DNA from: a virus | Taxonomy: Duplodnaviria > Heunggongvirae > Uroviricota > Caudoviricetes | Direction: 5' to 3' (one strand) | Length of the DNA stretch: 41,003 nucleotides | IMG/VR virus record: IMGVR_UViG_3300045988_002471 | Span: 1-41,003 of that record | Shown: positions 4,564 to 12,167 of the stretch, one piece after another | Position numbering within the stretch: position 1 is the stretch's first letter | Layout: the number at the start of each line of letters is the position of its first letter | Notes under the pieces: model-generated | Told to the model about the DNA's origin: nothing | Databases searched by the model: none | Seen by the model: only the letters and a program-made list of their open reading frames with translations | Translations under genes and position numbers: made by a program

Positions 4564-5988
4564 ATGTCTAAATTTATCCGTCGAGAGTACCAGAAGCTCA
4601 TGACTTCGTTCATGTTGCAACACCCTCGCTGTAATATCTGGTGCGGCATGGGAGGGGGTAAAACCTCCTCTACTATGTGGGTGCTAAATCGACTGTTCCG
4701 TAATGGGCAACTTAATGACGACGACCGAGTGTTAATTCTGGCCCCTTTACGTGTTGCGTCCGGTACGTGGCCCGCAGAACAAGAGAAATGGAACTTCCCT
4801 TGTCTGCGTGTCGTCGATGCGACCGGTTCAGAGAAGCGCCGCATCGCGGCGCTGGAGTCAGATGCTAACGTGGTGTGCACAAACTACGAAGTTATCGAGT
4901 GGCTGATTGACTACTACGGCAAAGACGACTGGCCTTTTACGGTTATCGTTGCTGATGAGAGCACGAAGCTGAAATCTTTCCGTAGCCGTTCTGGAGGAAG
5001 CAAACGGGCTAAGGCGCTAAGCAAAGTGGCGTTCGGAAAGGTTAAGCGTTTCATTAACCTGACAGGCACACCGTCGCCGAACGGCCTCAAGGACTTGTGG
5101 GGGCAGAACTGGTTTATCGACGCTGGCGAGCGCCTTGGTTCTTCGTACACGGCATTCACCGACCGCTGGTTTAACTCAGTACAGAAAGGCAAGTCGGCGA
5201 TGGCGCGGGAGTACCACGCACGCCCGGGCGCGGATAATGAAATTCACCAGAAGATGAAAGACATAAGCCTCACTATTGACGCCGCTGAGTGGTTCGGGTG
5301 TGAAGCGCCGATTATTGTTCCGGTTGAAATCGACCTGCCGAAGAAAGCACGTCAGGCGTACATCGATATGGAGGAGAAGTTATTCGCGGAACTTGAGAGC
5401 GGGGAAGTGGAAGCTGCTAACGCTGCTGCGAAGACGTCGAAGTGCTTGCAAATTGCATCCGGTGCCGTATATGTATCGGGGCCAGACGGCGAAGCAACCA
5501 AAGAATGGGAGAAAGTGCACGACACGAAACTGGACGCGCTTGAGTCGATTGTGGAGGAGTTACAGGGTGCGCCGCTGCTTGTGGCCTATCAGTTCAAGCA
5601 CGAACTGGAGCGTATCCTTAAGCGATTCCCACAAGCACAGGCGTTTGCCAAAGGAGCGAAGGGTAATAAGCAGATGGAAGCGTGGAATCGTGGAGAAATC
5701 GAAATCTTATGCGTACATCCTGCGTCAGCGGGCCACGGCATATCGCTACAAGACGGCGGCCATCATATGGCGTTTTTCAGTCAGGGATGGAACCTCGAAC
5801 ACTATTTGCAGGTTATCGAGCGTATAGGTCCAACACGGCAAAAGCAATCTGGGTACAATCGCACCGTTTTTATCTACAAGATTATCGCTAAAGATACGTT
5901 GGATGAAGTAGTTGCGGCTCGTACCGACGAGAAAAAACAAGTACAAGACATACTACTAGAGTATATGAAGCGCAGAGGTAAAAAATGA
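4564..5988 (+). CDS. SNF2/DEAD-like superfamily 2 DNA helicase
   Basis: GMGGGKT Walker A-like, VIVADESTKLK DExx box, LTGTPSPN motif; start set to ATG 4564 after RBS AAGGA. Confidence 0.8.
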   Translation: MSKFIRREYQKLMTSFMLQHPRCNIWCGMGGGKTSSTMWVLNRLFRNGQLNDDDRVLILAPLRVASGTWPAEQEKWNFPCLRVVDATGSEKRRIAALESDANVVCTNYEVIEWLIDYYGKDDWPFTVIVADESTKLKSFRSRSGGSKRAKALSKVAFGKVKRFINLTGTPSPNGLKDLWGQNWFIDAGERLGSSYTAFTDRWFNSVQKGKSAMAREYHARPGADNEIHQKMKDISLTIDAAEWFGCEAPIIVPVEIDLPKKARQAYIDMEEKLFAELESGEVEAANAAAKTSKCLQIASGAVYVSGPDGEATKEWEKVHDTKLDALESIVEELQGAPLLVAYQFKHELERILKRFPQAQAFAKGAKGNKQMEAWNRGEIEILCVHPASAGHGISLQDGGHHMAFFSQGWNLEHYLQVIERIGPTRQKQSGYNRTVFIYKIIAKDTLDEVVAARTDEKKQVQDILLEYMKRRGKK

Positions 5989-6482
5989 CCTATTGGAATG
6001 AGCTTTTTAATTACGACCCTAATACCGGGGTACTATCATGGAAAAAGTGGCGTAGGGGTGCAAAAAGAAGTTTAGTAGCGGGCACAAAGGAGCGTGACGG
6101 GTATGTGCGTGTGAAACATAAAAACAAGCATATCCCCGTTCACAGAATAATTTGGGATATGTGCAACCCTAATGATGTTCTGACTCCCGGATTCGAGATA
6201 GACCATATAAATCACATAAGGGATGACAATAGAATATTAAACTTGAGAAAAGTAGTTAAGATTGATAACAACCGCAACACGACAAGAAACAAGGCTAATA
6301 CTTCTGGGGTTGTAGGTGTACATTTTAACCGTTCGAGAGGTAAATGGGTCGCCGTTATCTACGACAATCGTAAGCTCGTTTTCTTGGGGCACTTCTCTGA
6401 TTTCAAAGACGCTGTTGCTGTCAGGAAAGCAGCGGAAATAAAATACAATTACCACGAAAACCACGGGTCAGAAAAACCATGA
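5985..6482 (+). CDS. HNH homing endonuclease with AP2 domain (paralog of 1204..1677)
   Basis: IDHINHIRDDNRILNL HNH motif plus SGVVGVHFNRSRGKWVAVI AP2-like region. Confidence 0.75.
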   Translation: MTYWNELFNYDPNTGVLSWKKWRRGAKRSLVAGTKERDGYVRVKHKNKHIPVHRIIWDMCNPNDVLTPGFEIDHINHIRDDNRILNLRKVVKIDNNRNTTRNKANTSGVVGVHFNRSRGKWVAVIYDNRKLVFLGHFSDFKDAVAVRKAAEIKYNYHENHGSEKP

Positions 6483-6620: not shown

Positions 6621-6648
6621 AAGGCCCCGTTTGGGGCCTTAGTTTTAT
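6621..6648 (+). terminator. Rho-independent terminator (AAGGCCCC-gttt-GGGGCCTT + T-run) ending the plus-strand early operon; convergent with tailspike 3' end
   Basis: Perfect 8-bp GC stem then AGTTTTATTT. Confidence 0.7.
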
Positions 6649-9599
6649 TTATCTTCTAGTGCTGCCAGCCTCTTCTCGAACTCGCGCATCTTCTTACGCT
6701 GATAGGCAATCTCTATGAAGAACATCTGGTCCGCCCTAACCCCCCATCTGCCGCCGGGAGGGGATACTTGTACAGTCTGGCCCTCTTCATCAATATCATA
6801 CGCAGCTTCAATTGGGTCGTAGCACAAGAAAGCATATTTACAATCGGTAGAATCTTTCTCCATAAGCCCATGGTTGACCAAGATGTCTCGCACATCTTGG
6901 GCTATCACACCGAAGTGTATCCTTGCAGTGTCACCCTTGATTGCTAGGCTTTCAAGCCACTTAAAAGATATTACATGTATATCTTCCCATGCGGTAAGGA
7001 GTTGTCCCTCAATTTCCTCTTTATTCGTCTTAAGTGTACCATCAGACGTGTTTATCGTACCGGTGGTCGCGTACACCGTAGTCCACCTGTTACCTGCCGA
7101 ACCTAAAGGCACTTGCGAGTCTAAGTAAGGAAGGAAATTGTTGTATGAGTAGAAGCCTCCTGACGCATACATAATAGCCCTGTTAGGCGTTGCATGGTTT
7201 GCCCCGTACAGTTGCAGCAACGCACCATCGGAACTGGATGCGCCATCACCACCGCTAACTATCAGTCTTTGAACCGATGGGGTTTTAGTGGGGACTGTTT
7301 TTGAAATCAGCCCGTAATCACCATCAAACCGTGCGCGCACGGCAGACTGTTGTGTACCATCGTATTCCAGCCCCGTTACATGCAGGGAGTACACGCTTAC
7401 ATCATTGTCAAACGTTAAAGGTGCTTCTACATGGCGTACACCATCTACCCCCATGGCGACAGGTATTGTACGGTTAGGAGTTGCTCCGTATTTGAAATCA
7501 CGTGATACGTACGGGTGGTCTTCAATCTTTATCCGGTAGCTATATAAGTCAGCCGGATGCCCATCATGTTTGTACCATAACTTCGCACTGTTATCCCCTA
7601 TGCTCCAGGGAGAGAAGAAGTCTTCCCCACCAAAGATATAGTACAACCAGCCATCTTTAACACAGACCGAGCCGACGCCGACAGCAGAGTTAACGATATG
7701 ACCCTGGTATATTTGGTCGGTAATATTAAACCACTGAACATCATCTAAAGATGAAGGCCAGGACGACACATTGACTTTGCACATAAAGGTCCGTGGATAC
7801 GAACCTTCATAGCGGCTGTCCGGCTCGCCTCCTTCCCACTCGCCAAAGGCACGCTCTGTACCAAAGATGTAGAGATAGTCACCTACTTTAGCGAACGGAA
7901 GATTGGAGTGATGTACATTGTTCGGAAATCGCAAGTAGCTCCAGTTTTGCCCAGAATCGGTGCTCATCGCCAGTGTAGAGCCAGGGGAAGTAGGTAATGT
8001 GCCGCGTGTGGTAAGGTAGAGCACCCCACCATAACTTTTCACGCACGGCTCAGAAGCGTTATCAGCGTATGCCTGAGCGACAGTGCGACGAACGAATACG
8101 CCTGGATTGTCATACACGTTACTAAAATACAAGACGCCAAGACGACGAGGGGACACATCGCCGTTGTGGTAGCCGACAGCGATAGTGTAGTTAACATCAT
8201 CTATAACCGCAAAACTATGTGTCTCCGTGACACACAAATCAGCGTTAGTGGAGTATGCTACCCCAGGCAATTCGGTAATTTCCCACGGGCTGTCCCAGAA
8301 TCGCGTTGCGAAGTTCCAGGTAACACCCGCATTGTTTATGGTGGAACTCGCCGGGGTTGAGAGCGTAACAGTGAACGTATTTCGGTTAATTATAGACGAA
8401 ACCGTCATATTACCCGATACGCCAGTTGCCGATGTATTAGAGAAGTTAACCGCATCTCCTGCTTTTAGACCATGATTTTCTATAACAATGGTAGCAGTAG
8501 TGGAGCCAGAACTAATAGTTATTCCGCCGGTTGGGTGTCTAAAATACGGCATTGGGCGTGACCAAAGTTCTGCCTTCTTCATCCGCATATTAGATAAGTA
8601 GCGGGTTTCTATAACTGCATATAATCGGTTGCCGCACGTACCCATGCTCATGCAGTGGTAGTTAACTCTGTCCGAGGAAACACTAGCATTATAGTCAGCA
8701 TGGATCGGGGTCAACCACTCAGGCATTGACCAAGTCTGCCCGTCGTCACCAGAGCGAACCCAAGCTACATGTAAGTTTTGAACGCCATGTCGTTCGCCTG
8801 CCATAAACGGAGCGTAAATAACATTGTCGTAGACGAAAGTTTTATCCTGCGTCCATGCGTTGTAGAACGGGGTATCCGTCACCTTAGTTAGTGAGCCGTT
8901 AAAGAAGCCATCAGCTACATAAGTAAGCGGTTGCCCAGCTACGCGCTCGTAAACGAATGCAGCATTCTTAAATTTACTAATGTCAGGTAATTGGGAAACT
9001 TTATAAGTCAAACCCCTGCCGTCTATAATCCAATTGTTGGGGGAAGCTGCTAATACATTAAAAATAGATTGAGTATCATCAGTTACGCCGTCGCCCACGG
9101 CGCCCCATGCGCGCAGGTCGTATTCGTCCTTCCATCGCGCCACATGTAAATCTGGGTACAGAATTGCACCGTTTACATCAGATATTTGATGCCGCAGTAT
9201 GACCGACCCGACGGGCTGCCATGCCCCATCTGCCACGCCACCGGTGGACTGCGGAGAGGATGACGCTGGGATAATTTTTGGCAGAGCACCCAACCAATAG
9301 TACCAGTCCCCGTCACCGCCAGAGGACGACGGCCACAAAACTGCGGTGTTTCGGTCGTTAGCGGATAGTGTACCGCCTGACGTGAAATCAAAATCTGCCA
9401 GTTTAAAACCTGCGTCACGCAACACAGCCGGCAGTGTCTTCTGTGTCTGCCCTGTAACTGCGTTGGTCGCGTAATCGATATCAGAGCCACCAGCAACGCC
9501 GCCGGATTTACCAGTGATAACCTCGGCTTCGAAAATCTGGTGTTTCGTGGCGGTCTGTAAATCCGCCAGGCTTAAAACGTCACCGCATCCGCTTGACAT
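6645..9599 (-). CDS. Tailspike, sialidase-like (Asp-box/BNR) with C-terminal intramolecular chaperone (peptidase S74-like) domain; possible endosialidase
   Basis: 984 aa; Asp-boxes SGDDGQTW and STDSGQNW; GAVGDGVTDDT motif; C-terminal ...HFGVIAQDVRDIL...AALEDK autoproteolytic chaperone signature. Confidence 0.8.
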   Translation of the reverse strand: MSSGCGDVLSLADLQTATKHQIFEAEVITGKSGGVAGGSDIDYATNAVTGQTQKTLPAVLRDAGFKLADFDFTSGGTLSANDRNTAVLWPSSSGGDGDWYYWLGALPKIIPASSSPQSTGGVADGAWQPVGSVILRHQISDVNGAILYPDLHVARWKDEYDLRAWGAVGDGVTDDTQSIFNVLAASPNNWIIDGRGLTYKVSQLPDISKFKNAAFVYERVAGQPLTYVADGFFNGSLTKVTDTPFYNAWTQDKTFVYDNVIYAPFMAGERHGVQNLHVAWVRSGDDGQTWSMPEWLTPIHADYNASVSSDRVNYHCMSMGTCGNRLYAVIETRYLSNMRMKKAELWSRPMPYFRHPTGGITISSGSTTATIVIENHGLKAGDAVNFSNTSATGVSGNMTVSSIINRNTFTVTLSTPASSTINNAGVTWNFATRFWDSPWEITELPGVAYSTNADLCVTETHSFAVIDDVNYTIAVGYHNGDVSPRRLGVLYFSNVYDNPGVFVRRTVAQAYADNASEPCVKSYGGVLYLTTRGTLPTSPGSTLAMSTDSGQNWSYLRFPNNVHHSNLPFAKVGDYLYIFGTERAFGEWEGGEPDSRYEGSYPRTFMCKVNVSSWPSSLDDVQWFNITDQIYQGHIVNSAVGVGSVCVKDGWLYYIFGGEDFFSPWSIGDNSAKLWYKHDGHPADLYSYRIKIEDHPYVSRDFKYGATPNRTIPVAMGVDGVRHVEAPLTFDNDVSVYSLHVTGLEYDGTQQSAVRARFDGDYGLISKTVPTKTPSVQRLIVSGGDGASSSDGALLQLYGANHATPNRAIMYASGGFYSYNNFLPYLDSQVPLGSAGNRWTTVYATTGTINTSDGTLKTNKEEIEGQLLTAWEDIHVISFKWLESLAIKGDTARIHFGVIAQDVRDILVNHGLMEKDSTDCKYAFLCYDPIEAAYDIDEEGQTVQVSPPGGRWGVRADQMFFIEIAYQRKKMREFEKRLAALEDK

Positions 9600-9611
9600 A
9601 TAGAGTCCTCT

Positions 9612-12167
9612 TTAATTAAAACCATCGCTGAATCCGTCGGAGAAACCGCTGCCGTATGGCGCGACGCCGTCGTATTTATAGAAACCTTCATCATAGTTGT
9701 AGCCAGTAATCTTGACCGTGCGGTCGTCGCCCGGGTCGATTGAAGAAACAACTATCTTCTGTGCATTATGCCTTGCTTCGTTGCCGAATGAAAACTCAGT
9801 TTTTAGTGCGCTATTCCCTGTGTAGATTGCTTCCTCCGGCGCCGATAGCATAATCACCTCGCGGTCGTGGCTTCCTTGAATAACGGAGATACTCTGCACT
9901 GAGCCGTCGCGCTTCTTAAGAATGATGGAGTGGTCATCGCCCGCGGTAAACGTAACAGGCTGCGACAGCGTCAGCGTAAGCCCATTAACGGCAACAACAT
10001 AGCCGTCTTGTGGCGCAATACGCGAGCCTTTAACCACGCTGATTACGCCGCCGGGAGTAGCGAGCGCACCTTCTTCAGTAGCTTCGAACTCTACGACAAC
10101 TTTACTTAACGCATTGCGCTGATATCGACGCCACGCAAGCCAGTACGCCTGCTGGTAGTTGCGCACGCCCTTCGATTCGTATTCCTCAGTGTTTGCGCCG
10201 AGTTCTTCCGGGATATAAATAGTTTCCCGTACGTTAGTATCTGGGTCGATGTACGAGAACGAAAGGCTATCGTAGGTAGTCGAATCGTTGAACGTGCGGG
10301 TCCATTTCTCTGTACCGGTAGTTTTGCTGCGGTGGGTGAACACCATTTCAGGCCCCGCAACCGGACGGTCGAATCGCAACATAATATCCGCACCTTTACG
10401 GTACGCAGTACAGAAAACGGCTTCCGCTATGGTCTGAACAATGTCCTGCATCGTGGTGTCGTAGTCGTCGAACGTGTAGCAGAATTGTCCGGCTAATTCG
10501 CTGCCAAAATAGGACTCAATTTCTTCCTGCACAGCGAGTAACTTATCCATATTTGCCGTTGTCAGTTCCAGATTACCCACCGCCGGGTCTCGAGCCAGTC
10601 TGATTAGAGATTGCACGGCCTGAGTATTTGGGGTCATTACAGTATCGAACGTCCCATTGCCGAGGTATTTGTAGCACATCTCGGTCGCAATCATGCGCAG
10701 TTCCGGGTTGTCTATACTCGCCGCCCGCGGGGTCTGTTTACGGGCGCAATGTACGGTAGTTCGGTTGCCGTAGTGCGGTGTGGGGTCCAGAGACTGACCG
10801 TACAGGTTGATGAAGGTTATCTCGTCACTTACCGTGCCGTTGTAGTCTTTATCGAAATTCGTTATACGGCGCATGCGGGCGCGGAAACGCGATGCGGTTG
10901 GCAACTGCCCATAAATGGACGTGCCGACGTAATCCGTGCTATTACCAGTAATCGTAGCCTGTACCGTGTAAATATCGCTCAACGGGTTGCGTTGAGAATC
11001 AATCATCTGGTACTGGAGTTCTACGGTTACGCTGGTGCGGTTATAGCCGCCGTCGTATTTGTAGAGGCCGTTCTGCCCGGCAACGTTAGCAAGTACCCGG
11101 TCAACCTCTCCGCGCACCATGTAATACCAGTCCGTAAGAGATACGTCATAGGTGTTGCTTGGGCCTATAAACGTATCCGAACGCTCTGTAAGTGCGTAAG
11201 TCTCCCCGTTATTAAGGTTACCCCAGTTACCTATATCCCCGACGTACAACCGAACCTCAAAGTCGTCGACGTATAAAACTTCAAACGAGCCGTTTAGGTT
11301 AGTGACGTCCTTAACGTCGAAATTGCTCAACACTGCGACATCACCAACACTAAGAAACTCAGAAAAAGCAGAGTCACCCGACGGGTCATATAGGTAGCCG
11401 GTGGTCGAAATACGTTTGGCGGTTCCACCGGAGCTTGGGTTAGCTCCAATGTCGTTTGGCGCTTTCAGTACAATACCGTCAACGTCGTCGTTAGAGTACG
11501 TCACATAGAGTTTCTGGTCGATGACGTCGCCGATTTGTAGTTGCGGCGATGTGGTGTTGTTCGGTGACGTATACGGCGCGTATACGGCAACAGAGGAACC
11601 TGTGATGTCGCTTATCAGGGTGTCACCTTCCGTGACGCCATCCGCCTCAATATGCAGATGTCCGCGCCCGGCGTCGTAGTACGAATACTCCAGCAAAGCA
11701 CCAGTGGAGTTGAACGCCTTATACGTCTGCATCATGTCGTTAGGGATTGTCTGCACAGTCCCGCAGATGTCATAAGAGCGCTCGTAAGGGCGCGGCTTGT
11801 TTGAGCGGTCGGTAAGGCTGTTATTTGGCGATGTTGTCTGGTTATTAGTCGCCGTGTAGTTGGCGTTTGCAGACATGTTCAGGCCGAGCAACTTAGCGAT
11901 TGGCTTAAGGATAAAACCAAACACCTTACTAACGGCACCAAGCGCCCCGCTACCAGCGCCCTCAATAATGTGGTATACCGCGTCTTCATCTTTAAGCGCG
12001 TCGAAGTCGTCGGTGACATCAGTATCGTCACCAATCTCACCGAGGTAGACGCGCACCGGCACACCGTCCGGGATACGGTTAACGACAAACTCCATCGGCA
12101 TCCCGACGTGTTTTGTACGGTCGAAAGCGCCATCAGCGTTTCGCGTGTAGTGCAGGATTATCGCCAA
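9612..12167 (-). CDS. Large distal tail protein (tail tip / host-specificity J-like)
   Basis: 851 aa, between minor tail genes and tailspike. Confidence 0.5.
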   Translation of the reverse strand: MAIILHYTRNADGAFDRTKHVGMPMEFVVNRIPDGVPVRVYLGEIGDDTDVTDDFDALKDEDAVYHIIEGAGSGALGAVSKVFGFILKPIAKLLGLNMSANANYTATNNQTTSPNNSLTDRSNKPRPYERSYDICGTVQTIPNDMMQTYKAFNSTGALLEYSYYDAGRGHLHIEADGVTEGDTLISDITGSSVAVYAPYTSPNNTTSPQLQIGDVIDQKLYVTYSNDDVDGIVLKAPNDIGANPSSGGTAKRISTTGYLYDPSGDSAFSEFLSVGDVAVLSNFDVKDVTNLNGSFEVLYVDDFEVRLYVGDIGNWGNLNNGETYALTERSDTFIGPSNTYDVSLTDWYYMVRGEVDRVLANVAGQNGLYKYDGGYNRTSVTVELQYQMIDSQRNPLSDIYTVQATITGNSTDYVGTSIYGQLPTASRFRARMRRITNFDKDYNGTVSDEITFINLYGQSLDPTPHYGNRTTVHCARKQTPRAASIDNPELRMIATEMCYKYLGNGTFDTVMTPNTQAVQSLIRLARDPAVGNLELTTANMDKLLAVQEEIESYFGSELAGQFCYTFDDYDTTMQDIVQTIAEAVFCTAYRKGADIMLRFDRPVAGPEMVFTHRSKTTGTEKWTRTFNDSTTYDSLSFSYIDPDTNVRETIYIPEELGANTEEYESKGVRNYQQAYWLAWRRYQRNALSKVVVEFEATEEGALATPGGVISVVKGSRIAPQDGYVVAVNGLTLTLSQPVTFTAGDDHSIILKKRDGSVQSISVIQGSHDREVIMLSAPEEAIYTGNSALKTEFSFGNEARHNAQKIVVSSIDPGDDRTVKITGYNYDEGFYKYDGVAPYGSGFSDGFSDGFN

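What the first reader, a model, noticed from the sequence alone, without database searches (positions are those of the whole stretch)
6645..9599. Tailspike with sialidase-type Asp-boxes and a C-terminal self-cleaving chaperone domain
The 984-aa protein carries two Asp-box motifs (SGDDGQTW, STDSGQNW) typical of sialidase beta-propellers, and ends with a region (…HFGVIAQDVRDIL…RLAALEDK) resembling the intramolecular chaperone of endosialidases and T5 L-shaped fibre. This predicts a capsule-degrading depolymerase, possibly specific for polysialic acid (K1-type) capsule. Substrate is inferred.
Basis: partly seen in the sequence, partly recalled or inferred. Interest (0 to 1): 0.55.

Follow-up and report, generated by a model that had tools for sequence, protein, structure and literature searches.

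The report
Known K1-capsule endosialidase tailspike (63D/K1G type)

Summary
There are two Asp-boxes, at residues 283-290 and 546-553, where 0.015 per protein are expected by chance. The C-terminal self-cleaving chaperone domain spans residues 852-984.

The protein is a phage endosialidase. Pfam matches the endosialidase N-extension, beta-propeller (E 1.5e-224), inserted beta-barrel and stalk domains, plus Peptidase_S74. The crystal structures of the phi92 enzyme (E=0, 79% identity over residues 166-851) and of K1F endoNF (E 1e-230) align end to end. All catalytic residues are conserved (H271, R485, E517, R532, R583), and so is the autocleavage set (D827, R838, T851|S852, K857).

The protein is 98.6% identical to the phage K1G tailspike, 97.5% to the cloned 63D endo-N-acetylneuraminidase and 97.0% to the K1H enzyme. 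The K1H enzyme has been purified as a processed 93 kDa trimer that degrades K1 capsule. The predicted mature mass here is 92.8 kDa.

The window is a Kagunavirus (K1G-like siphovirus) genome.

The parts
6645..9599 (-). Complete endosialidase tailspike precursor gene (984 aa, 108.0 kDa, including the stop codon at 6645-6647)
   Evidence: ORF listing. It is 98.6% identical to the K1G tailspike and 97.5% to the 63D endo-N-acetylneuraminidase.
9607..9610 (-). Shine-Dalgarno GAGG, 7 nt upstream of the ATG; the upstream tail gene stops at 9612-9614
   Evidence: Sequence read. The 63D record annotates an RBS in the same place.
9105..9599 (-). N-terminal virion-attachment module (residues 1-165), including Tail_spike_N (97-131)
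   Evidence: Pfam PF18668, E 2e-14. Residues 1-138 are about 70% identical to the N-termini of Salmonella Jerseyvirus tailspikes (one record annotates its spike as an endorhamnosidase). The module is 58-66% identical to other Kagunavirus spikes. PDB matches to tailspike N-terminal regions: 9vvr, 4oj5, 9lna.
8901..9104 (-). Endosialidase N-terminal extension (residues 166-233)
   Evidence: Pfam PF12218, E 8.1e-38. Aligned to 4hiz and 1v0e from their first residues.
7521..8900 (-). Catalytic six-bladed beta-propeller (residues 234-693) with catalytic residues H271, R485, E517, R532, R583
   Evidence: Pfam PF12217, E 1.5e-224. Residue mapping to K1F H350/R549/E581/R596/R647. The role of these residues is taken from PMC12632334.
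8301..8549 (-). Beta-barrel domain inserted in the propeller (residues 351-433)
   Evidence: Pfam PF12195, E 1.1e-40.
8730..8753 (-). Asp-box 1, SGDDGQTW (residues 283-290)
   Evidence: Identical in K1F and phi92.
7941..7964 (-). Asp-box 2, STDSGQNW (residues 546-553)
   Evidence: Aligned with SRDIGQTW of K1F and SADLGENW of phi92.
7047..7520 (-). Stalk / tailspike domain (residues 694-851), which ends the mature protein at T851 and contains D827 and R838 of the cleavage site
   Evidence: Pfam PF12219, E 9.9e-75. The 4hiz chain ends at the aligned ...TGTINT. D827/R838 correspond to K1F D886/R897.
7044..7049 (-). Predicted autocleavage site T851|S852 (with K857 at nt 7029-7031)
   Evidence: Aligned with K1F T910|S911/K916 and phi92 T756|S757/K762. 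The phi92 record annotates mature peptide 2-756 and the CTD from 757. The Thr|Ser-Lys mechanism is taken from PMC4690869.
6648..7046 (-). C-terminal intramolecular chaperone domain (residues 852-984, 15.3 kDa), released after trimer folding
   Evidence: Pfam PF13884, E 8e-13. 3gw6 E 3.5e-57, 3gud 1.5e-11, 4uw8 9.4e-7.
6621..6640 (.). GC-rich hairpin (AAGGCCCC-AAAC-GGGGCCTT) 4 nt after the stop codon, followed by UUUUCUCU on the minus strand. It is a probable terminator shared by the convergent tailspike and HNH genes.
   Evidence: Terminator scan. Fold of -15.5 kcal/mol, z = -3.6. Sequence.

Best explanation
The gene encodes the tailspike of a K1G-like siphovirus (genus Kagunavirus). The protein is an endo-N-acetylneuraminidase (endosialidase, CAZy GH58) that binds and cuts the alpha-2,8-linked polysialic acid K1 capsule of E. 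coli, so that the phage can reach the outer membrane. It is made as a 108 kDa precursor. Residues 1-165 anchor it to the tail tip. Residues 166-693 form the N-extension and a six-bladed beta-propeller active site with an inserted beta-barrel. Residues 694-851 form the intertwined trimeric stalk. Residues 852-984 are an intramolecular chaperone that drives trimer folding and then cuts itself off between T851 and S852 (Ser-Lys mechanism, helped by R838 of a neighbouring chain), leaving a 92.8 kDa mature subunit. Shown here: the domain architecture, conservation of residues, and near-identity to characterised enzymes. Inferred by orthology: the activity, the trimeric state and the processing of this particular allele.
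For: Four endosialidase-specific Pfam domains plus Peptidase_S74 match in the canonical order, all far above their gathering scores. PDB matches: phi92 endoN 4hiz E=0 over residues 166-851; K1F endoNF 1v0e/3gvl about 1e-230; K1F chaperone domain 3gw6 3.5e-57. Identities: 98.6% to K1G, 97.5% to 63D, 97.0% to K1H and 97.3% to JSSK01, all exactly 984 aa with no indels. In the catalytic and stalk region, identity is 79.3% to phi92 and 53.5% to K1F. The catalytic residues H271, R485, E517, R532 and R583 and the second-shell residues Q251, D252, H461, S462, K521 and N637 are all conserved. The cleavage residues D827, R838, T851, S852 and K857 are also conserved. Of the codons that differ from K1G, 48 are synonymous and 14 are non-synonymous, which indicates purifying selection. 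The predicted mature mass of 92.8 kDa matches the 93 kDa 'after proteolysis' reported for recombinant K1H enzyme. That enzyme was mostly trimeric and degraded K1 capsule in vitro (PMC5696595). The genome context is a Kagunavirus tail module: about 93% nt identity to K1G, fTaEco and UTI89UKE1, with the gene directly downstream of a GpJ-like tail protein. The hosts of the closest phages are O18:K1:H7, UTI89 and other K1 strains.
Against: There is nothing substantive against it. This exact allele has not been assayed. It carries 8 residues not seen in nine orthologues: K18T, A39S, Q137H, S309, S415T, V776, S831P and D939E. S831P lies between D827 and R838 near the cleavage site, but that position is A in K1F, so it is naturally variable. 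An older report called the 63D enzyme a tetramer (Machida 2000, as cited in PMC5380687), which conflicts with the trimer seen for K1H and in the crystal structures.
Confidence: 0.97

Rival explanations
1. The fold and mechanism are the same, but the linkage specificity is broader or shifted. Because the catalytic region is much closer to phi92 endoN (79%) than to K1F endoNF (53%), the enzyme may also depolymerise the K92 capsule (alternating alpha-2,8/alpha-2,9), as reported for phi92 gp143. It may also differ in how well it tolerates O-acetylated K1.
For: Catalytic and stalk region identity is 79.3% to phi92 against 53.5% to K1F. The phi92 enzyme is annotated and described as acting on both polymers (PMC13450770). 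The K1F stalk-site residue Q853 is L in both this protein and phi92.
Against: All close relatives were isolated on and described as K1-dependent. No K92 data for 63D/K1G-type enzymes were found in the papers searched. This would add to the main explanation rather than replace it.
Confidence: 0.15
2. The protein is a catalytically dead tailspike that still binds polysialic acid, acting as an adhesin only.
For: Single substitutions in endosialidases can separate binding from cleavage (title of Jakobsson 2007, as cited in PMC5380687). This allele has 8 private substitutions.
Against: None of the private substitutions touches a catalytic or second-shell residue, and all eleven checked are conserved. 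Changes relative to K1G are mostly synonymous (48 against 14).
Confidence: 0.02
3. The protein is a non-sialidase depolymerase (for example a pectate-lyase-type beta-helix spike) in which the Asp-box-like strings occur by chance.
For: A sub-threshold Pfam hit to Pect-lyase_RHGA_epim over 20 residues (E 0.28, 11.4 bits against a cut-off of 27).
Against: The endosialidase propeller domain scores 745 bits. The alignment to solved endosialidases is end to end, and the Asp-boxes align with theirs. The chance expectation is 0.015 motifs per protein.
Confidence: 0.005

Closest known systems
Endo-N-acetylneuraminidase of coliphage 63D (GenBank AB015437 / BAA32990; Machida et al. 2000) and the 'tailspike 63D sialidase' of phages K1G and K1H (Bull et al. 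2010)
   Same: Length is the same (984 aa) with no indels. Identity is 97.5% to 63D, 98.6% to K1G and 97.0% to K1H. All domains are the same, and the position in a Kagunavirus tail module is the same.
   Different: There are 14-30 amino-acid substitutions, 8 of them private to this allele. The gene downstream differs: an HNH homing endonuclease here and a 61-aa ORF28 in K1G.
Phage phi92 endosialidase gp143 (PDB 4HIZ)
   Same: The catalytic, barrel and stalk region is 79% identical and the chaperone domain 72%. The cleavage site is identical (T|S..K), and the mature and CTD peptides are annotated in the phi92 record.
   Different: The N-terminal attachment module differs: phi92 is a myovirus, and only 67 residues align at 36%. 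There is a 4-residue insertion here (ADYNASVSSDRV against PDYTADKV). phi92 is reported to be bifunctional on K1 and K92 polymers, which has not been tested for this type.
Phage K1F endosialidase endoNF (PDB 1V0E, 3GVL; chaperone domain 3GW6)
   Same: The architecture is the same from the N-extension to the chaperone. All catalytic and autocleavage residues are conserved and both Asp-boxes align.
   Different: Identity is only 53.5% in the catalytic and stalk region and 49.6% in the CTD. K1F has a T7-gp17-like N-terminus for a podovirus tail. The K1F chaperone domain has longer inserts, and stalk-site residue Q853 is L794 here.
Intramolecular chaperone autocleavage domains of the T5 L-shaped fibre pb1 (4UW8) and the GA-1 neck appendage (3GUD); Pfam Peptidase_S74
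   Same: The domain is homologous. The conserved scissile Ser, the Lys five residues later, and the upstream Arg and Asp are present, with the same spacing as T5 D1239/R1250/S1264/K1269.
   Different: These domains are attached to unrelated receptor-binding domains, and similarity is only distant (E 1e-6 to 1e-11).

Membership tests
Phage endosialidase (endo-N-acetylneuraminidase, GH58) | Six-bladed beta-propeller catalytic domain of the endosialidase type (Pfam PF12217), preceded by the N-terminal extension (PF12218) | tested here: met
   PF12217 scores 745 bits over the full profile 1-367, and PF12218 scores 128 bits. Aligned to 4hiz and 1v0e across the whole crystallised chains.
Phage endosialidase (endo-N-acetylneuraminidase, GH58) | Beta-barrel (lectin-like) domain inserted in the propeller | tested here: met
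   PF12195, 137.9 bits, residues 351-433.
Phage endosialidase (endo-N-acetylneuraminidase, GH58) | Catalytic residues equivalent to endoNF H350, R549, E581, R596 and R647 | tested here: met
   H271, R485, E517, R532 and R583 are all identical in the alignment. Their roles are taken from PMC12632334.
Phage endosialidase (endo-N-acetylneuraminidase, GH58) | Two Asp-box motifs (S-x-D-x-G-x-x-W) in the propeller | tested here: met
   Residues 283-290 and 546-553, aligned with those of K1F and phi92. Chance expectation is 0.015.
Phage endosialidase (endo-N-acetylneuraminidase, GH58) | Trimeric stalk / tailspike domain (PF12219) | tested here: met
   PF12219, 250 bits, profile 1-160 of 160. The trimeric state itself is inferred from 4hiz (3 chains) and from K1H size-exclusion data.
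Phage endosialidase (endo-N-acetylneuraminidase, GH58) | Endo-cleavage of alpha-2,8-polysialic acid | not testable with these tools
   Shown experimentally for the 97.0%-identical K1H enzyme (PMC5696595) and reported for 63D (Machida 2000, cited). Not assayed for this allele.
Intramolecular chaperone autocleavage domain (Peptidase_S74 / CIMCD) | C-terminal domain homologous to the endoNF CTD | tested here: met
   PF13884 E 8e-13. 3gw6 E 3.5e-57 over residues 756-984.
Intramolecular chaperone autocleavage domain (Peptidase_S74 / CIMCD) | Scissile Ser with Lys at +5, plus the upstream Arg (-14) and Asp (-25) used in the proposed mechanism | tested here: met
   S852, K857, R838 and D827 align with K1F S911, K916, R897 and D886. 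The spacing is the same as T5 S1264/K1269/R1250/D1239 (PMC4690869).
Intramolecular chaperone autocleavage domain (Peptidase_S74 / CIMCD) | Actual proteolytic release of the CTD | not testable with these tools
   The predicted mature mass is 92.8 kDa. Recombinant K1H enzyme ran at 93 kDa 'after proteolysis'.
Kagunavirus (Guernseyvirinae) tailspike | N-terminal module shared with other Guernseyvirinae tailspikes, and a position downstream of the GpJ-like tail protein | tested here: met
   Residues 1-138 are about 70% identical to Jerseyvirus spikes and 58-66% to other Kagunavirus spikes. Synteny with K1G. The upstream 851-aa protein has weak GpJ / Phage-tail_3 hits.

The most novel reading that the evidence does not exclude
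The most novel reading the evidence leaves open concerns specificity and processing. The catalytic region of the 63D/K1G-type enzyme is far closer to the bifunctional phi92 enzyme (79%) than to K1F (53%), so it may also degrade the K92 (alternating alpha-2,8/alpha-2,9) capsule. Alternatively, this allele's private substitutions (for example S831P beside the autocleavage residues, and V776 in the stalk next to R778, the counterpart of the K1F stalk-site residue R837) may change processing or processivity. Either would be a modest refinement of a known enzyme, not a new kind of system.
Probability: 0.12. Interest if true: 0.25.

Novelty: already known. Interest (0 to 1): 0.08.

Why it matters
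For basic biology it matters little. The enzyme family, its structure, its inverting GH58 chemistry, its self-cleaving chaperone and its role in K1 phage host range were worked out between 2000 and 2015. This exact subtype (63D/K1G/K1H/JSSK01) has been cloned, purified and used therapeutically in mice. The practical value is annotation. The gene marks the window as a K1-capsule-dependent Kagunavirus, predicts its host range (E. coli K1: neonatal meningitis, UTI and APEC strains), and provides one more natural allele of a depolymerase that is of interest for phage therapy and polysialic-acid detection.

Tried and rejected
1. Chance occurrence of the Asp-boxes is rejected. Shuffling gives 0.015 motifs per protein and both motifs align with the endoNF and endoN92 motifs.

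2. A pectate-lyase-type spike is rejected. The only hit is an 11-bit, 20-residue sub-threshold match.

3. I did not run AlphaFold or fold search.

4. The annotated phage collection already gave 20 records at 95% identity or above.

5. I looked for RNA features that might complicate the reading. There are no tRNAs and no Rfam families at gathering score anywhere in the window.

6. The promoter and terminator scan around the gene gave counts no higher than shuffles. Only the hairpin at 6621-6640 is individually convincing.

7. The hits at about 49% identity over 99% of the length (Pipis, MirsaeidiM_Esher2/7) might have been a second siphoviral endosialidase lineage. The one I fetched, Pipis, carries a 1064-aa CDS of K1F length. 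The group is probably K1F-like; I did not check it further.

8. The primary papers (Machida 2000, Bull 2010, Stummeyer 2005, Schulz 2010, Schwarzer 2015) were not among the papers returned by my searches. Their content is cited only through papers that I could read.
Full report
**Observation**

The window has an uninterrupted ATG-to-TAA ORF of 984 codons at 6645-9599 on the minus strand.
- A GAGG Shine-Dalgarno lies 7 nt upstream of the ATG, and the stop codon of the preceding 851-aa tail gene is only 12 nt before the start.
- SGDDGQTW occupies residues 283-290 and STDSGQNW residues 546-553. HFGVIAQDVRDIL starts at residue 895 and RLAALEDK ends the protein.
- In 20,000 shuffles of the protein, the Asp-box pattern S.D.G..W occurred 0.015 times per sequence.
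- Both motifs sit exactly where the Asp-boxes of the K1F and phi92 endosialidases sit in the alignments.

**What the protein is**

Pfam gives a complete, collinear endosialidase architecture:

| Domain | Residues | Score |
|---|---|---|
| Tail_spike_N | 97-131 | E 2e-14 |
| End_N_terminal | 167-233 | 128 bits |
| End_beta_propel | 234-693 | 745 bits, E 1.5e-224, full profile |
| End_beta_barrel (inserted in the propeller) | 351-433 | 138 bits |
| End_tail_spike | 694-851 | 250 bits |
| Peptidase_S74 'chaperone of endosialidase' | 852-912 | E 8e-13 |

Matches to solved structures:
- Residues 166-851 match the phi92 endosialidase 4HIZ with E=0.
- The same region matches K1F endoNF (1V0E, 3GVL and others) with E about 1e-230, in both cases across the whole crystallised chain.
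- Residues 756-984 match the K1F stalk-plus-chaperone construct 3GW6 (3.5e-57).
- The chaperone part also matches the GA-1 neck appendage (3GUD, 1.5e-11) and the T5 L-shaped fibre (4UW8, 9.4e-7).

It is excluded at the level of 79% sequence identity to a crystal structure, so I did not run a structure prediction.

**Residue-level checks**

I aligned the protein with the 63D, K1G, phi92 and K1F enzymes taken from their GenBank records.
- The endoNF residues named as catalytic or substrate-binding in a deep mutational scan of K1F are H350, R549, E581, R596 and R647 (PMC12632334). They correspond here to H271, R485, E517, R532 and R583, all identical.
- The second-shell residues Q330, D331, H527, S528, K585 and N699 are also identical.
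- The autocleavage site is conserved. T851|S852 aligns with K1F T910|S911 and phi92 T756|S757.
- The phi92 record annotates the mature peptide and the released C-terminal domain at exactly that boundary, and the 4HIZ chain ends at the aligned ...TGTINT.
- K857 (Ser+5), R838 (Ser-14) and D827 (Ser-25) align with K1F K916, R897 and D886.
- These residues have the same spacing as the T5 pb1 residues K1269, R1250 and D1239. The T5 structure paper assigns those residues to the proposed mechanism, in which Lys activates the scissile Ser and the Arg comes from a neighbouring chain, so that cleavage requires a correctly folded trimer (PMC4690869).

**Identity to characterised enzymes**

tblastn against 50,697 phage records found 20 records at 95-99% identity. 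All nine full-length orthologues I fetched have exactly 984 residues.

| Orthologue | Identity |
|---|---|
| K1G | 98.6% |
| UTI89UKE1 | 98.5% |
| phage L AB-2017 | 97.9% |
| fTaEco03 | 97.8% |
| ULINTec2 | 97.6% |
| 63D (AB015437, 'endo-N-acetylneuraminidase') | 97.5% |
| JSSK01 | 97.3% |
| K1H | 97.0% |
| VIPECOTH07 | 96.1% |

- Of the codons differing from K1G, 48 are synonymous and 14 are non-synonymous.
- Eighty-one columns vary among the ten proteins. Variation is lowest in the N-extension (1.5%) and the propeller (5.0%), and highest in the chaperone domain (15.8%).
- Eight residues are private to this allele: T18, S39, H137, S309, T415, V776, P831 and E939. None is a functional residue. 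P831 lies between D827 and R838, but the position is Ala in K1F, so it is naturally variable.

**Experimental knowledge about these orthologues**
- Recombinant K1H depolymerase ran at 93 kDa 'after proteolysis', was mostly trimeric by size exclusion, and degraded purified K1 capsule in vitro with specific activity similar to the K1E and K1F enzymes. It also rescued mice (PMC5696595).
- The predicted mass here is 108.0 kDa for the precursor, 92.8 kDa for residues 1-851 and 15.3 kDa for the released domain, which agrees with the K1H result.
- The JSSK01 protein has the same four Pfam domains. It was expressed recombinantly, antibodies were raised against it, and gold-labelled electron microscopy was used to locate it on the particle (PMC11641727).
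- Reviews list the 63D enzyme among the best-studied K1 endosialidases. They note that it was originally called a tetramer (PMC5380687), which is at odds with the trimer data.

**Genome context**

The first 25 kb of the window is about 93% identical over 84-95% of its length to K1G, K1H, fTaEco01/03, fKuEco01 and UTI89UKE1, which are Kagunavirus, Guernseyvirinae. The remaining 16 kb matches ULINTec2 and relatives at about 93% over about 80%. The gene order of tape measure, small tail proteins, 851-aa tail protein and tailspike is that of K1G. The upstream protein has weak GpJ-type hits. The window is thus a K1-dependent Kagunavirus genome, probably complete at 41 kb.

**Modularity**

Residues 1-138 are about 70% identical to the N-termini of Salmonella Jerseyvirus tailspikes, whose distal parts did not match this protein; one record annotates its spike as an endorhamnosidase. 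The module is 58-66% identical to other Kagunavirus spikes. The endosialidase part is shared with myovirus phi92 and the K1F-type podoviruses. This is the familiar exchange of a receptor-destroying module on a lineage-specific anchor, already described for K1 phages.

**Mechanism**

Shown here: the architecture, the residues and the orthology. Inferred: the steps that follow.
1. The precursor trimerises under the guidance of the C-terminal domain.
2. Once the triple-beta-helical stalk is formed, R838 of a neighbouring chain and K857 position and activate S852, and the T851-S852 bond is cut.
3. The 15 kDa domain leaves.
4. The mature trimer, anchored to the tail tip by residues 1-165, binds polysialic acid and cleaves internal alpha-2,8 linkages in the propeller active site.
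5. This cleavage tunnels the phage through the K1 capsule.

**Verdict**

The object is an already known, experimentally characterised enzyme type, so its interest is low. The only open points are minor: whether 63D-type enzymes share phi92's activity on K92 polymer, and whether any of the eight private substitutions matters.

Noticed in passing
window 5985-6482 (+): A 165-aa HNH_3 + AP2-like homing endonuclease ORF (Pfam E 1e-8 and 2e-3) overlaps the stop of the SNF2-type helicase gene by 4 nt. It occupies the slot where K1G has a 61-aa hypothetical ORF28. Its DNA has no megablast match in the phage collection; homology to relatives resumes at its stop codon, about 6479. The best protein match is only 58% (HNH homing endonucleases of Salmonella Jerseyvirus phages). 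It looks like a cassette replacement by a mobile endonuclease next to the tailspike gene.
   Followed up: partly
window 6621-6640: A GC-rich hairpin (-15.5 kcal/mol, z = -3.6) lies between the convergent HNH and tailspike genes, with T-rich tracts on both strands. It is a probable bidirectional terminator. The region is conserved at about 95% in K1G-like phages.
   Followed up: partly
window 1-41003: The whole window behaves as a complete Kagunavirus genome of about 41 kb. Its nearest relatives are only about 93% identical over 80-95% coverage, so it may be a distinct species by the usual 95% criterion. There are no tRNA genes and no Rfam family hits.
   Followed up: partly
window 9612-12167 (-): The 851-aa tail protein upstream of the tailspike has only weak GpJ FNIII-A and Phage-tail_3 hits. 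It ends in a short repeat, ...GSGFSDGFSDGFN. Its stop is 12 nt from the tailspike ATG, which suggests co-transcription.
   Followed up: no
window 7107-7109 (residue P831) and seven other codons: Eight residues are private to this allele among ten orthologues: T18, S39, H137, S309, T415, V776, P831 and E939. S831P sits in the stalk between the autocleavage residues D827 and R838. V776 is two residues from R778, the counterpart of the K1F stalk-site residue R837.
   Followed up: partly
literature: The 63D endosialidase is cited as a homotetramer (Machida 2000). The 97%-identical K1H enzyme is mostly trimeric by size exclusion, and the homologous crystal structures are trimers. The tetramer report is probably outdated.
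   Followed up: no
window 9105-9599 (residues 6-165) vs L004 (K1F gp17 residues 85-244): The region upstream of the crystallised endoNF fragment in K1F is 39% identical to this protein's N-terminal module. The homology between siphoviral and podoviral endosialidases therefore extends beyond the catalytic cassette into the Tail_spike_N-type domain.
   Followed up: no
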